Assembly (NCBI GenBank): GCA_964016885.1
Contig: OZ024747.1
Coordinates: forward strand, 14,322,001-14,386,000
Origin: Eledone cirrhosa
Taxonomy: Eukaryota
DNA: 64,000 nt
Direction: 5' to 3'
Position numbers and translations under genes: made by a program. The notes under the pieces were generated by a model, which saw only the letters and a list, made by a program, of their open reading frames with translations, ran no database searches and was not told the DNA's origin. Position 1 is the first letter of the stretch, and each line of letters opens with the position of its first letter. Below are positions 7,899 through 53,433 of this stretch, piece after piece.

Positions 7899-7938
<40 letters not shown>

Positions 7939-8429
7939 TGCTATTTCTTGTAAATAAACATTCACTTCCATCCTGACGTCACTAGCCCCGTTTTTTTCCT
8001 CATGTGCTTTTTCATAATTACACATGAAGGCGAACTAGCCAGTTTTAGAATTCCCTTTTTCGGATTATATTACTGTGAGAGCCCTGGTTTTCTGTTGAGC
8101 TCTGCTGATGAATGAAATCCAACCGTGACCATCTCCACTGAAAGTTTTCATGAAATAGTCTTTTAAGACTATACAGAGCATTTGATGTTATTCCAAATTG
8201 AAGGATAAGTGTTTCAAACTTTATTTTATCATGAGTTAAAGGTCTATAAATTTTTCCCCGGATTTCACTAAATTCTGTGGATGAATTTATATCCTGATTC
8301 TCTTTTGAGATGAGTTTGAGTTATTTTTCCTAAATCTTTCGTTAACTACTTTTCCCATCTTGACGTTATAGTCGCATATATGTTATAGAATGCCGTTAGC
8401 TTCTTGCTAAAACAATCTCTATACCTCTC

Positions 8430-8481
<52 letters not shown>

Positions 8482-43505: not shown

Positions 43506-44238
43506 GGCGACCTACGTAGTAAATCGTATTATCGTGAGCTCCGCAAAGGTTTGTTATTTTCAGTTCTTTAAAATTGCCATTCATGGAAAATTTTTATTGT
43601 TAACACTATATAAGTGCACATACATTGATTTCTAAAAAGGACACTCAAAAATATTGAGGCCTTGAGCCCAAAATTTAAACTTTTTATAATTATCAAACAA
43701 AAATTTTTCTTTGAAAAATAATGGATGACTCAGAGTCACTCCTTCCTCACACTCTAACACCTCACACCGACACCACCATTGTAAATATTGCTACGTTTGC
43801 CAACACTGGAAATGTAAGCAGTACCAATATTTTAAATTTGTCTCAGGCAGACGTTCATTTCCCGCCATTACCAATGACAGCAGGTGTTAAAGCCGCCACC
43901 ACCCCCACCACCGCAACAACCACCACCCCACCACCACCACAGCGACAACAAAATAAAAGAAAAAAATAAATTAACTCGTGATATCGAAATGAATTCAACC
44001 AAAATGAACTCTTCCACACCGAACACAACTGACGCCACCACCACCACAACTGAAACTAAAATTAACAATAGCAAAAATAACGATAACAACAACAGCAACA
44101 ATGAAATTAAGAAAACTACCCTGAGTTTTGCCAGAGTAGCAAAAACGTGCGAAGCGATCCAGGTAACTCAGGAGGAATTAGAAGAAGCCAAAGGAATGGT
44201 AAAGAAAGATGTGTACAGGGTCAGCCTCCCCCCCCCAC
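43506..44238 (+). mobile_element. 5' end (UTR plus ORF1 start) of a Tx1-like element, truncated
   Basis: Starts GG right after (TTA)n. UTR motif AATATTGAGGCCTTGAGCCCAAAATTTAAACTTTTT resembles 45272-45312. T/N-rich ORF1 start with SFA.VA. Confidence 0.6.
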
Positions 44239-44244
44239 CTAATA

Positions 44245-45110
44245 AAATGGAGCAACGTGGCGTATGCTCATACCACTTCCCAGAATGTGGTAAATTGTTT
44301 ACTTTGCATAGGTGCCAGTGGATCACCCTGCCCATCACATCATGTCTCCAGCCTTTATAGTGAGTCTGGGCTAGATGTTTACACTCGGATACAATGTGAG
44401 CCACAGTCTCCTCTCTCTCTCCACAGATCCTGCACAGTGGGCTAGCCTTCTCTTGTAAATATGGTGTTTCAGCCACTTAGTTTTGAGGGCCTGCTCTTGC
44501 GCAGCCATTAGCATTCCTTCTGTAGCCTTTTTAAGGTCTCCTCTTCTCAACCAGTTCCATGTCTGTGGATCTCTGAATTCAGTTTTCTCAAAGAAGGTAG
44601 TATGAAGGGATTTTTCATGAAGGCTGCTCTTTCTCCTCGTTGTTATTTCCTCCTTGGACATCCCCTGGTCTATTGTCCTCTCCTTCAGTACAATTCTGAG
44701 CATTGGCTCCTTACTATCAGTCACGTATTTGTTTAGGTTGTTTTTCTCCATCTGAACACAGTCCTCTATGCTGATAAGATTCTTCCACCTTCAGATCTCC
44801 TTAAGTAGAGTCTACCGACATCACTCCTCTTGTGGAACATGTAGATAGTCAATAGCTTCCTAGTCTTCCTATCCATTTCTCTTTGTTCAGCAACATTCCA
44901 TCTCAGAATTCCCGCACTGTACCTAATAATAGACACAGCTCGGGAATTTACTGCACTTATGGAATTCCTACTGTTCAGATGTGACTTTAATACGCTCCTT
45001 ACTCTCCGAATGTATTCAGATCTTTTCAATTCCTTCATTTTTTTTGTTCTTGATGTCATCAGCCTCCAGAACACCCAAATACTGTATCCTTCTTCAGTGA
45101 CAATTTCCTT
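44245..45110 (-). mobile_element. R4/Dong-clade fragment (RT thumb to CCHC), frameshifted
   Basis: LKSHLNSRN.I.AVN..AV.IIRYSAGIL.W, DRKTRKLLT, RLYL.RSEGGR, TEG.LMAAQEQAL.T, CRICG...ETV.HIVSEC..LA...Y..RHD. Confidence 0.9.
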
Positions 45111-45138
45111 TATTCTTCTTCTTCTTATTATTATTATT

Positions 45139-47888
45139 GGTCTAAGTGGACGTATTTTGCTAGCTCACAGTAAGTCGCTTTATTTGCCTGTTAAAATTAT
45201 CTGTTGTTAAATATTTCTTGTTGTGTAAGGGTTATAAGCCTTTAGACTTTGTCCCGTGAAGGGCAAAATATAATATTTGGGCCTTTTGGCCCAAATATTT
45301 GAACTTTTTTTTACATGTTAAAACATTTACGAAGAAAAAAAAACATGACTGAACCACGCCCCCCCATCGATATGTCGGCTGTCGTGCGACAACGAAGTAG
45401 AAGTTGAGAGGAGCGCTACAGCGAAATTAACACACATTGATAACACAAACACCACCACAAACAAGGTAACCAAAGACACCAATGATACCAATAAGAACAC
45501 TAATTTTGAAAAAAATGACAGTAACAGCGACAACGAAAATACAGATAACAAAAAAACAAACAACAATATCAACACCACTAACGTGAAAACAAATAGCGAC
45601 AACACCAACAACAACAATACCAACTGCACCGAGAACAACGGTGACAGCAAAGACAACAATGATAACAGCGACAGTGCTAACAACATCACCAACAAGAACA
45701 ACGACAACAAAACCCCCAACGAAAACAAGAAGAACAGTTTCGCTGCGGCAGCAGTAAAAAAGAGGCCATGTTTCAACATGGACCTCTCAAACAAAGATGA
45801 AAAGTTGGCCCAGGCATGGAAGCTCATCAAGCAAGAGCAAACTTGGGCCAACTTAACTGTTCCGGTAGAAGCTATTGAGGCAGTGGAGCGCAAAACGGTG
45901 CATTATAGATGCATCTCAGCACAATCCAAAAGGGCAGCTTTAATCCCACAAGATGTCGAAGTCGCGCTGAGATGCATCAGAGAAGACAGTACATAGAGAG
46001 GGGCAGACAGTACAGCACCATTTCGGTGTTGTTCAAGTCAGAAGCCCTCGCTATGAAACACGCTATAGCTCCTTGCAAAACCAGCAAGGTCATAATGTAC
46101 CCCTCCCAGAATCCCACTAGGACTTGACATGTGGTGGCTTCTGGGATGTGTGATTGTGGAGGGGACGGATACAGTCCCTATAGAAGTGACCAGAACGGCC
46201 AGAGAACGGCTGGAGCTGTTGCAGGGCATCCCGCTCGAACCGGGACGCGGAAAGGCTGTGTCGGCTTATGCGGACGACATCACCCTGATGGTGTCGGACA
46301 CCTCAGAAATCGAGGTGGTCGGCAACTTATTGGAGGAATATGAAAGGTTGACGGAAGCAAAACTTAACCCGGAAAAGTCAGTGGGCTTGCAACTCGGCAC
46401 CTGGAGAGGCAAGTCCATGCCGTCCAACAGCGTCGTTAGGCGCTGGACGGACGGACCGGTAAAGTTGCTAGGGGTTTGGTTCGGGCCAGACCTCCAGGTG
46501 GATAATAATTGGGACGAGGTGACGGGCAGGGTAGTCAGTCTCACCCAGAAATGGGCTGGGATGAAGCTATCACTGAAAGGTCGGGTGGAGATAGCCACCG
46601 CGTACATCGCATCCGTCATCTACTACCGTCTGACTGTCGGCCCTTGCCCCCGTTCGCGTCTCGCCATCTTGGAGCGGCTCCTCTTCAAATTCTTGTGGAG
46701 GGGTCAGGTTCCGCTGGTGAGGCGGTCCATCTGCTGCCAGCACTATCTACGTGGATGGATGGGCATGCCGCGGCCAATGATGCGCAGGCACGCGCTGAGG
46801 CTGTGGCATCTCCAGATATTCTTCCTAAACGGTGAACAGGTGTGGTCGCCGTTTGTCAGACGGGCCTTTCCGCAGCTCGTTTCTTTGACTGAGTTGCAGT
46901 CAATGGTAAAGAAGAGACCGAGACTGGGTGACTGGCATCTGGAATGTTTCCAGGCACTCACTGCTCTTTACCAGGCGGGCAATGCGGTCAGTGGAACTTC
47001 CACTCTCGAGTTCTATAGAGGATTAGTGGTGGGCAAGTGCGACGACGCACTCGGAGAGGCTCTGGGAGTCAACGAAGTCGAGCTAACCAGTCTGTACCGG
47101 TGGACTTTCGAGCCGGGGACGATGGATAATTTCCAAAAATCCCTCGCTTGGCAGTGCTACCGGGGGCACTCTACAGGCACGGAAGTGCTGTCAGACGGAC
47201 CTGCCCGAGATGCGCACAGAGCGACGAAACCGTTCTGCACGCACTCCTCCAGTGTCCGTGCATTACTGACTTGTGGAGTTATGTTGAACAGCTGTTGTCG
47301 CGTGTACAACGGATCCGGCTATCGGCCGAGTCCATAGTGAAGATCGACCCGCCGCCTTCTTTTGGCCAGGAGGGGCAGGCAATTTTCCTCTGTCTGGTGG
47401 CAGTAGCGAAAGAGGTTGTATGGTGGACGAGGTTGAAAGGCCTGAAGACAGACACTTTTCTCTTCGGCCAATCCCTCATCAACTTTTTCAAGTTTCACTT
47501 GGAAAGGAAGGTGAGGGTGGAGAGAGAAGTGCTGCCCCCCAGTACATTTGCTGAAAGGTGGGTGAATGTGGCGAGAATGGCCTGTGTGAGTGGGCCTACT
47601 CTGGTCATGCGGCTGTAGGTAGGTAAATTTGAAGAGGAGAGGGGTGCCCTTCCAGGGTTCTCTCGAAGCGTCGGGTCGTTCAGGACTGGTGGGGTACCTG
47701 AGCGAACCCTAGGTGGTCATCCCCCCTATTGGGGAATGTTTTCTTGTAATTTTCTTGTTACTTTATTGTTACTTTGTTATTGTTACTTTGTTTATTGATA
47801 TTGTTTACTCGATTTTTCTGTAAAACCCCATTGTCCCAGTCTTTTGTATTGTCCCCTATATGTCGGCCCTTGTGGCCAATAAATGAAA
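45139..47888 (+). mobile_element. Internally deleted Tx1-clade LINE, relative of 1-5100, with both ends retained
   Basis: 5' UTR, ORF1 remnant (TVHYR.IS..SK..A...Q..E.., DMWWLLG) fused at ~46205 to the ORF2 C-half (LELLQGIPLEPG, YADD ... 47618). AATAAA at 47878. (ATT)n on both sides. Confidence 0.92.
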
Positions 47889-50643: not shown

Positions 50644-50856
50644 TATATATATATTTATATATATATATATATATATAAATATATATTAATAGTAATAATA
50701 ATATAAATTTGAAGACTAAAATCCAAAGGGGGCTCGATAAGGATAAATATAATTCAAATATATAAGAACCGTAGAGCAAATATTTATTAAAATAACAGAT
50801 TAAACTTTAATCTGTTATTTTAATAAATATATTTATACTATATATATATATATATA

Positions 50857-52125
<1,269 letters not shown>

Positions 52126-52160
52126 TTTCATAGGTACATCTTTATTTATAAAACAAACTT

Positions 52161-52229
52161 TGTATTTTATCTGATGAAAGCGCGCCAAGGTTTGCTTGGT
52201 TGCCCTTGAAATATATATAATAAAATATA
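52161..52229 (+). ncRNA. Type I hammerhead ribozyme motif, intact core, long stem II
   Basis: UGUAUUUUAU-CUGAUGA-AAGCGCGCCAAG guuug CUUGGUUGCCCUU-GAA-AUAUAUAU-A-AUAAAAUAUA. 10-bp stem I. Confidence 0.85.
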
Positions 52230-52434
52230 TATGGTTTTATATATATAGTTTCCATTTATTTAATATCATGGTATATATATACATATATATAAGTTGATGA
52301 CATCACAATACTACTAGGTGCTTCACATAATGTATGGTACTGCAATATCATGTATCACTGTCCTACTCAATGTTAACTGGGTTTAAACAAATGGAGAGAA
52401 AATCGCTACAGAATTCGGATGTAAGGTGGTAAAA

Positions 52435-52499
<65 letters not shown>

Positions 52500-52506
<7 letters not shown>

Positions 52507-52655
52507 AAAAAGAGATGAAATCGAAAATGCAACTGTTGTCTTATTTTTTTAAAAATTAAGACTCCAGTTGCATTTTAGATTTCATCTCTTTTTCTTTATA
52601 CTTTCACTCGTGTAGGACACCTCGGTTATTTTTCATTTTGTAAAAAAAACCTCAC

Positions 52656-52662
<7 letters not shown>
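52500..52662. mobile_element. Foldback unit between (TA)n tracts
   Basis: Arms 52500-52535 and 52565-52600. Confidence 0.7.
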
Positions 52663-52743
<81 letters not shown>

Positions 52744-52842
52744 AAAGTTATATTTAAATTGTTGGGTTACAACTAGTAAATATTTATACAAGTCGATGTT
52801 GAACGGTATGTCAAATCTATTTATCTATAAAACTGTCTATAT

Positions 52843-52910
52843 TGTATTTTGTCTGAAGAAGGCATAACATATTGTTAATATGATATCCCTGAAATATATA
52901 TAATGAAATA
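52843..52910 (+). ncRNA. Type I hammerhead ribozyme motif, paralogue of 52161
   Basis: UAUUUUGU-CUGAAGA-AGGCAUAACAUAUU guu AAUAUGAUAUCCCU-GAA-AUAUAUAU-A-AUGAAAUA. Same downstream tail as the 52161 copy. Confidence 0.85.
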
Positions 52911-53433
52911 AATATGGTTTTATAAATATAGTTTCCATTTATTTAATATCGTATATATATATATATATATATATATATAAGTATATTATGGTTCTCGGCT
53001 GCTGTTTTAGCTGTCTTTTGGTCCATTCAAACCACCATGGCATCTATACCGTGCATGTTTTCTTTTCCCACCCTGAGCGTATACTAGTTATCTGATACAT
53101 GTTTAGATGATCGTATTGTTGATCTTCCAGTTGATAAGCGGTCAACGGTATGAATCTACACTTTATTTGTGGCGAAACATGCTTACATGTCCAGGAGATA
53201 TAGTCATAAACGAATAGTCTCTACATTTTAATTCTTTCTTTTAATTGGTATGTAATCTGCATTTTATTCGTAAACAATATGGTTTTCACTCTGGTGGTAT
53301 CCTTTCCCATACAATTGAACGCTTACCTCGTTTTGTATTTTCCTCTCTATACTGTATTATAAATAGCCCGGAATCTATTCCTTGAGCTCATTAAATTATA
53401 AGGGATTAAAGTGAGTCTTTAACTCCATTTTTT

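What the first reader, a model, noticed from the sequence alone, without database searches (positions are those of the whole stretch)
52161..52960. Two paralogous hammerheads 682 bp apart with wholly different but paired stem II, and stem III made of AU repeat
Seen: same flanks and tail, cores CUGAUGA and CUGAAGA, stem II sequences unrelated yet both form 30-31-nt hairpins, and stem I changes keep pairing through G.U. Stem III plus the cleavage triplet is AUAUAUAUA, the same repeat these units sit in. Inference: strong structural selection. Same-strand neighbours with identical palindromic stem III could form a dimeric hammerhead and excise a ~680-nt circularisable RNA whose 3' end is complementary to (TA)n, a possible priming route for TA targeting.
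Basis: partly seen in the sequence, partly recalled or inferred. Interest (0 to 1): 0.76.

Follow-up and report, generated by a model that had tools for sequence, protein, structure and literature searches.

The report
Penelope-element hammerheads nested in TA repeat
The two hammerhead ribozyme motifs are ends of two separate, truncated copies of a very abundant Penelope-like jumping gene that sit in the same TA-repeat patch, so their 682-base spacing is most likely a coincidence, although the family's copies suggest that it likely starts copying its RNA at two fixed sites, one for each end of the cut target.

Summary
Both motifs are real type I hammerhead-shaped motifs with a palindromic stem III. 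Each is the terminal repeat (pLTR) of a Penelope-like retroelement (RT + Cys linker + GIY-YIG) that has at least 32,907 copies here. HH1 and HH2 belong to sister subfamilies (66% protein identity) and inserted separately into one (TA)n array. Two unrelated repeats and TA runs fill the gap, and no second copy of the 682-nt unit was found. Native same-variant pairs lie 3.7-3.9 kb apart around the ORF. Stem II is diverged but homologous and covaries. Copies end about 49 or 137 nt past the cut site; only about 0.4% end at it, so priming from the cleaved end is at most marginal. A heterodimer is sequence-possible but untested. All this matches known PLE biology. Worth keeping: 52 of 52 resolved fold-back insertions carry one short and one long end; the tail is about 90 nt, against 30-40 reported; and many 5' ends pile up at an initiator-like site, which points to an uncut sense RNA template. 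A genuine young 631-nt retrozyme lies at window 8105.

The parts
51765..52091 (.). (TA)n array, left part of the target
52092..52271 (+). Subfamily A pLTR fragment. Starts at the initiator-like CACT site (inferred transcript start) and ends at the 'short' 3' end
   Evidence: 43 near-full-length matches of 49 listed, incl. the window itself; others mostly 94-97%; 1149 candidates, 40 scored; linked to RT/GIY-YIG ORF in L024, L045, L170
52163..52227 (+). HH1, type I hammerhead: stem I 52163-70/52220-27, core 52171-77, stem II 52178-207, GAA, palindrome 52211-18, predicted cut after 52219
   Evidence: cleavage not tested
52290..52438 (-). Unrelated older repeat X; its left end abuts TA in most other copies viewed (strand inferred from that)
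   Evidence: 40 other matches, 72-84% identity; no family hammerhead adjoining X in 6 loci viewed
52439..52503 (.). (TA)32
52504..52661 (+). Unrelated young repeat Y, a self-contained fold-back insertion with its own short and long ends
52662..52741 (.). (AT)40
52742..52788 (-). Inverted 'long' 3' end of subfamily B; left arm of the HH2 insertion
   Evidence: identical over 46 nt to the long end of full-length copy L169
52786..52951 (+). Subfamily B pLTR arm, 5'-truncated, ending at the 'short' 3' end
   Evidence: 166 of 166 nt identical to the 3' pLTR of full-length copy L169
52845..52910 (+). HH2, type I hammerhead: stem I 52845-52/52903-10, core 52853-59, stem II 52860-90, palindrome 52894-901, predicted cut after 52902
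   Evidence: cleavage not tested
52952..52979 (.). (TA)14, right junction of the HH2 insertion

Best explanation
HH1 and HH2 are the pLTR hammerheads of two sister subfamilies of a C-terminal-endonuclease Penelope-like element (likely Neptune type), most likely inserted as two independent truncated copies into one (TA)n array, and each is predicted to cleave only as a dimer with its twin 3.7-3.9 kb away in the full pLTR-ORF-pLTR transcript. Shown by sequence: membership, two fixed 3' ends (about +49 and +137 from the cut), TA targets, and fold-back insertions with one end of each kind. Inferred, by analogy with the Anolis PLE in vitro: the GIY-YIG domain opens (TA)n; both target ends prime reverse transcription internally on sense RNA that still holds an intact hammerhead, one at each start site, next to 2-6 nt TA-like microhomologies; the two cDNAs are joined head to head or run off the RNA's 5' end. 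HH1 would be such a run-off copy (transcript start to short site). HH2 is a fold-back insertion. The 682-nt spacing is a by-product of shared TA targeting.
For: HH2 arm is 166/166 identical to the 3' pLTR of full-length L169, and 52742-52788 is its inverted long end. L168 has HHR - uninterrupted 748-residue frame (P0001) - HHR 3868 nt apart; L169 3772; L113 3747; A-type L170 3676. P0001 shows DKT, YRDD, a CxCx5CPx4C linker and a GIY-YIG-like IIY..YVG; the A-type EN region scores PF01541 at E 2e-4, 21.9 bits against a 22.6 cut-off. A and B proteins are 66% identical. 32,907 exact copies of the 3' anchor. In 102 anchor copies from the first 22 Mb of C1, 61 of 63 short ends lie at +41..+58 and 34 of 39 long ends at +133..+147. 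Ends at the cut site: 25 vs 6,057 continuing (B) and 21 vs 2,370 (A, with 7 of 12 viewed being slippage). Spacer pieces are independent repeats. Other close same-strand pairs (285, 364, 452, 734 nt) all differ in stem II and have a TA run between them. One short plus one long end in 23 of 23 and 29 of 29 resolved fold-back pairs. About 26 of 109 copies start within about 15 nt of the conserved CACT (hand count), about 42 nt before a conserved GTAYGT; Penelope's intron starts 46 nt after its start site (PMC2377424).
Against: No cleavage, transcription or priming was observed. RNAalifold gave no consensus structure on the MAFFT alignment, and the number of pairs with a double change (6) did not beat shuffles (283/500). 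Full-length proteins had no Pfam hit at E 0.1. Cut-site ends (about 0.4%) are about 4 times more frequent than ends at a control internal site (37 vs 32,907, 0.11%), so a small cleaved-end route is not excluded. The 5' pile-up could also come from a TAT microhomology at that site. The order of the four insertions is not known, and TSDs cannot be read in TA. The Neptune label was not tested by a tree.
Confidence: 0.9

Rival explanations
1. One reading: the two hammerheads are a selected pair that dimerise, excise a 683-nt RNA, circularise it, and use its AUAUAUAUA 3' end to prime on (TA)n (a retrozyme).
For: Heterodimer stems I and III pair fully (8 bp each). The constrained dimer is 2.6 kcal/mol above the MFE, against 10.8 for monomers. 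HH1 begins at the likely promoter start, so read-through is conceivable. About 0.4% of copies do end at the cut site (12 of 12 B and 5 of 12 A loci viewed).
Against: Different subfamilies (66% protein identity). The spacer is unrelated repeats plus TA, and piece X has no match above 84% among 40 scored. HH2 is a closed fold-back insertion with its own TA junctions. Similar chance pairs occur at arbitrary spacings. More than 99% of copies run past the cut site. 46 of 95 copies have AUAUGUAU, and related families use non-TA palindromes.
Confidence: 0.04
2. The pair is accidental, but read-through from HH1's promoter yields some heterodimer cleavage and a by-product circle with no role (an incipient, so far unpropagated retrozyme).
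For: Thermodynamic feasibility; HH1 starts at the initiator-like site; retrozymes are argued to derive from pLTRs (bioRxiv 10.64898/2026.07.22.740005).
Against: Dimer pair probabilities are 0.3-6%, and in the MFE the HH1 palindrome pairs locally at 52241-47. PLE hammerheads cleave poorly even as dimers (PMC4209133) and needed the protein in the Anolis case (PMC11167929). There is no expression evidence.
Confidence: 0.12
3. Insertions are made from a circular or antisense, self-primed template (proposed in PMC4209133 and PMC3846280) rather than from uncut linear sense RNA primed at both target ends.
For: Intact hammerheads and a retained donor-like site in genomic copies fit a re-ligated circle or an antisense template; palindromic fold-back junctions are frequent.
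Against: A circle has no 5' end at the initiator, yet about a quarter of copies stop there. The strict one-short-one-long rule fits two priming events better. The Anolis protein extends both strands and does not need hammerhead catalysis (PMC11167929). This concerns the inferred steps only, not the identity of the element.
Confidence: 0.2

Closest known systems
pLTR hammerheads of EN+ Penelope-like elements (Cervera and de la Pena 2014, PMC4209133; review PMC6765202)
   Same: Type I motif in the pLTR, long stem II, small palindromic stem III predicted to need a dimer, many sequence families per genome with compensatory changes, most copies solo and truncated, close opposite-strand pairs.
   Different: First stem II pair is usually A-U rather than the G10.1-C11.1 they describe; conserved internal C.C mismatch (53 of 56); 8-nt palindrome; at least 32,907 copies of one superfamily.
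Neptune (or Nematis) clade PLEs
   Same: Single ORF, RT then Cys-rich linker then C-terminal GIY-YIG; microsatellite insertion bias, which Craig 2021 (PMC8557442) notes was ascribed to this linker.
   Different: Clade not tested by tree. The tail is about 88-92 nt, against the 30-40 nt reported for PLEs.
Poseidon of Anolis carolinensis (PAc; Frangieh 2024, PMC11167929)
   Same: Two internal RT start sites 3' of the hammerhead that match the genomic ends; AT-rich targets; both strands extended; uncut RNA as template.
   Different: Different clade. Here the hammerhead lies wholly 5' of the likely ORF start, and the two sites are about 90 nt apart. All mechanism here is inferred from copies.
Metazoan non-LTR retrozymes (Cervera 2020, PMC7229834)
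   Same: Type I hammerheads on one strand a few hundred nt apart, low GC.
   Different: Retrozymes are tandem repeats of one monomer (170-400 nt RNAs). This pair is not a repeat unit and no other copy was found. The element at window 8105 does fit.

Membership tests
Type I hammerhead ribozyme | Core CUGANGA / GAAA / UH with stems I-III | tested here: met
   core positions fixed in 91-92 of 92 scored copies (10 of 102 skipped as truncated, deleted or unplaced), N7 variable
Type I hammerhead ribozyme | Covariation in stems | tested here: met
   92.6% of cells paired, 67 double-change cells vs 26 shuffled, slid controls 37-55%; four Watson-Crick combinations at two adjacent stem II pairs. Caveats: pair-count measure not above shuffles, RNAalifold empty, sequences related and chosen by a core pattern.
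Type I hammerhead ribozyme | Rfam model match | tested here: not met
   0 hits at gathering score in the window; E-value mode not run
Type I hammerhead ribozyme | Site-specific self-cleavage | not testable with these tools
   needs bench work
Dimer-type PLE hammerhead | Short, self-complementary stem III | tested here: met
   91 of 95 copies are AUAUAUAU or AUAUGUAU (the latter self-pairs with two G.U); other hammerhead-like families in the loci use ACUAGU, AGUACU, ACGCGU, AUGCGCAU
EN+ Penelope-like element | Single ORF with RT and C-terminal GIY-YIG between pLTRs | tested here: met
   (L168, L169, L170); PF01541 near cut-off on the A-type EN; motif names read by eye and from recall; no Pfam hit for the full proteins
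EN+ Penelope-like element | 5' truncation, partial tandems, inverted 5' copies, tail at one end | tested here: met
EN+ Penelope-like element | Retained spliceosomal intron in the 5' UTR | tested here: inconclusive
   donor-like GTAYGT conserved at about -95 to -98; acceptor and splicing not shown
Neptune clade | Cys-rich linker between RT and EN | tested here: met
   CxCx5CPx4C in both subfamilies; the linker is shared with Nematis
Neptune clade | RT phylogeny with named Neptune elements | not tested
   no named references; 23 homologues at 31-37% carry no clade names
Non-LTR retrozyme (for the 52171-52902 pair) | Tandem repeats of one monomer, each with a hammerhead, copied as a unit | tested here: not met
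Non-LTR retrozyme (for the 52171-52902 pair) | Expressed circular RNA | not testable with these tools
   needs RNA data

The most novel reading that the evidence does not exclude
In this PLE superfamily the hammerhead's palindromic stem III works mainly as an RNA dimerisation clasp, like a retroviral kissing signal. It holds two uncut pLTR copies together so that a dimeric RT-endonuclease primes the two ends of a (TA)n break at two different internal sites, one each. This would explain the strict one-short-one-long rule (52 of 52), the run-off copies ending at the transcript start, and why the palindrome is kept while cut-site junctions are almost absent.
Probability: 0.2. Interest if true: 0.72.

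Novelty: new member of a known kind. Interest (0 to 1): 0.33.

Why it matters
The flagged pair itself is ordinary: from 3 such pairs among about 100 sampled copies, roughly a thousand chance same-strand neighbours are expected in this genome (extrapolation). The family is more useful than the locus. What PLE hammerheads are for, and how the tail and fold-back structures arise, are stated open questions (PMC8557442, PMC11167929). Here tens of thousands of young copies, an uninterrupted ORF, two sharp start sites about 90 nt apart, a strict pairing rule and a 5' run-off peak give counts that constrain the models: they favour two-ended priming on uncut sense RNA over circles or antisense self-priming. 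They also give ready substrates for an in vitro test.

Tried and rejected
Rfam: no hit. The repeat finder was swamped by TA. Expression: no RNA holder listed. The four runs of unknown kind laid as contigs look like DNA by their depth profile and showed no joints, so there is no evidence on splicing, cleavage or circles either way. RNAalifold gave no structure; AU-rich stems and a few rows out of register may explain it. A BLAST-based 5'-end measurement timed out; its rerun was confounded by shared fold-back arms, so I used a hand count. The core tally and pair table had indexing errors and were redone; only its palindrome, GAA and H17 counts are used. Pfam on the full ORFs was empty. The idea that an intron from the GTAYGT donor encloses the whole hammerhead (candidate acceptors at +30 and +87) is untested. 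Lunse et al. (PMC5785218) is not held; it is known to me only as cited in PMC6765202. Earlier scan notes: nothing found. The term 'octopus' was a guess from genome size; the organism was not determined. Rejected: a dedicated 680-nt retrozyme; stem II as unrelated sequences; the TA identity of stem III as the targeting device.

Full report
Observation. A descriptor scan of both strands found three type I hammerhead shapes in the window: 8105, 52171 (HH1) and 52853 (HH2). Rfam found nothing at gathering score. The stems II are not unrelated: 14 of 31 aligned positions match (my count), and both are 3 pairs, a C.C mismatch and a longer helix.

What they belong to. In the 3.0-Gb own genome the HH1 unit gave 49 matches from 40 scored of 1,149 candidates, most at 94-97%. 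The HH2 unit gave 13 matches at 7 places. A 31-mer shared just 3' of the cut occurs 32,907 times exactly. Upstream of long copies lies one ORF with RT, a Cys-rich linker and a GIY-YIG domain. Complete pLTR-ORF-pLTR units have hammerheads 3,676-3,868 nt apart, and L168 has an uninterrupted 748-residue frame. The A (HH1) and B (HH2) proteins are 66% identical. The HH2 arm is identical over 166 nt to the 3' pLTR of full-length L169, and 52742-52788 is that element's long end, inverted. So HH2 is a closed fold-back insertion between (AT)40 and (TA)14. The clade name Neptune rests on the linker and on recall; no tree was built.

The spacer. After HH1's short end come a TA-like run, repeat X (52290-52438; 40 other matches, 72-84% identical), (TA)32, repeat Y (52504-52661; young, fold-back) and (AT)40. 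In 13 loci of X and Y no HH1-X-Y-HH2 order recurs. One Y locus has a family hammerhead next to it across a TA run, which is nesting again. Among the sampled copies, other close same-strand pairs lie 285, 364 and 734 nt apart (and 452 among the A hits). All differ in stem II and have TA between them; same-variant direct pairs occur only at full unit length. The 682-nt spacing is therefore one more nest in a shared target.

Structure under selection. On a MAFFT alignment of the two window motifs and 54 of 55 distinct motifs picked by a core pattern (one with a stem II deletion left out), the named structure is paired in 92.6% of cells, against 89.0% shuffled and 37-55% slid. It has 67 double-change cells against 26. 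However, the count of pairs with a double change (6) is no higher than shuffles, and RNAalifold found no consensus. Two adjacent stem II pairs occur in all four Watson-Crick combinations (29, 8, 6 and 4 of 56), which needs at least three compensatory steps; the C.C mismatch is kept in 53 of 56. In copies chosen by the 3' anchor, core letters are fixed in 91-92 of 92 scored (10 of 102 skipped) while N7 takes all four bases. Stem III is AUAUAUAU in 45 and AUAUGUAU in 46 of 95; the second still self-pairs through two G.U pairs. Other hammerhead-like families in the loci use ACUAGU, AGUACU, ACGCGU or AUGCGCAU. What is kept is self-complementarity, not TA. These copies are inherited from master elements, so selection acted on the masters, not on this pair.

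Dimer and circle. Cross-pairing of HH1 with HH2 is complete. In the 860-nt read-through the dimer fold is 2.6 kcal/mol above the minimum and two monomers are 10.8 above, but dimer pairs have only 0.3-6% probability. A construct might cleave; nothing shows that it matters, and no second copy of the composite was found.

Priming. If the cleaved end primed on TA, copies would end at the cut. In 102 distinct anchor copies from the first 22 Mb of contig C1, 63 have the short end (61 at +41..+58, mostly +49/+50) and 39 the long end (34 at +133..+147). That anchor cannot see cut-site ends, so these were counted apart. For B, 25 against 6,057 continuing, with 12 of 12 viewed being true junctions. For A, 21 against 2,370, with 5 of 12 viewed true and 7 slippage. 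That is about 0.4%. A control internal site with a shorter TA microhomology gives 37 against 32,907, or 0.11%. A minor cleaved-end route is thus neither shown nor excluded. Both main ends sit just before 2-6 nt of TA-like element sequence in most subfamilies.

Pairing rule and 5' peak. In divergent pairs of the unbiased sample, 23 of 23 with two terminal ends have one short and one long end; one more pair runs into the ORF. I then picked 30 further minus/plus neighbours by hand from the lists, blind to their ends, leaving out pairs already held and two that look like duplicates. The script called 28 short/long; one long/long call is a short end on reading, and one pair has a broken arm. That makes 52 of 52 resolved. 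A CACT motif at about -137 to -141 and GTAYGT at about -95 to -98 are conserved across diverged subfamilies, and about 26 of 109 copies begin within about 15 nt of the CACT (hand count). HH1 is one of them. I infer a transcript start there and reverse transcriptase running off an uncut linear sense RNA; a TAT microhomology at that site is the alternative.

Comparison with print. PMC4209133 (read parts 1-2 of 4) describes pLTR hammerheads with palindromic helix III, low activity even as dimers, and a circle hypothesis. PMC11167929 (parts 1-2 of 4) shows two internal RT starts that define the tail, extension of both strands, and dispensable hammerhead catalysis. PMC8557442 and PMC3846280 (passages) describe inverted 5' copies, a 30-40 nt tail at one end, microsatellite bias and a TCACT initiator. 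PMC2377424 (passages) puts the intron 46 nt after the start. PMC7229834, PMC6765202 (passages) and bioRxiv 10.64898/2026.07.22.740005 (part 1 of 5 and passages) cover retrozymes. So the architecture is known. In five searches and these readings I saw no tail of about 90 nt, no count of the one-of-each rule and no 5' run-off peak. Arkhipova 2006, Lunse 2017 and all supplements were not seen.

Verdict. Real hammerhead-shaped motifs of a known kind, in an accidental pair: a new member of a known kind, interest 0.33. The boldest reading left open is that the palindrome clasps two uncut RNAs for two-ended insertion (probability 0.2).

Noticed in passing
window 7936-8433; hammerhead core 8105, predicted cut after 8173: Truncated copy of a very young non-coding retrozyme: 40 of 40 scored matches near 100% identical (1,631 candidates), head-to-tail units of 630-631 nt (L220; C2:92722541-92724009 has three), longest frame 91 codons, fixed 3' end on TA about 260 nt past the cut. 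Its minimum-energy fold is the active hammerhead with a 7-bp stem III, so it is predicted to cleave as a monomer. The unit is longer than the 170-400 nt reported for animal retrozymes.
   Followed up: partly
L169 1011-1190 (B pLTR); window 52801-52932: A conserved donor-like GTAYGT about 97 nt before the cut, with candidate acceptors 30 and 87 nt after it, would place the whole hammerhead inside the 5' UTR intron. Untested.
   Followed up: partly
window 52504-52661: Repeat Y has the same fold-back build with its own short and long ends (about 67 nt apart) on TA, with no hammerhead seen in its own sequence nearby; likely another PLE-mobilised family.
   Followed up: partly
window 50856-51079 and 51564-51768: Direct repeat about 700 nt apart (89-95%) ending on the (TA)n array; it looks like a partial tandem of yet another TA-targeting element.
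   Followed up: no
L085, L094, L124, L132, L141, L153, L184: At least six other hammerhead-like families with different palindromic stems III (ACUAGU, AGUACU, ACGCGU, AUGCGCAU, ACCACUGGU) turn up in about 0.7 Mb of fetched loci.
   Followed up: no
window 44168-47618: Fragments of other retrotransposon ORFs (RTE-like on the minus strand at 44168-45164; an L1/Tx1-like RT region at 46096-47618); names from recall.
   Followed up: no
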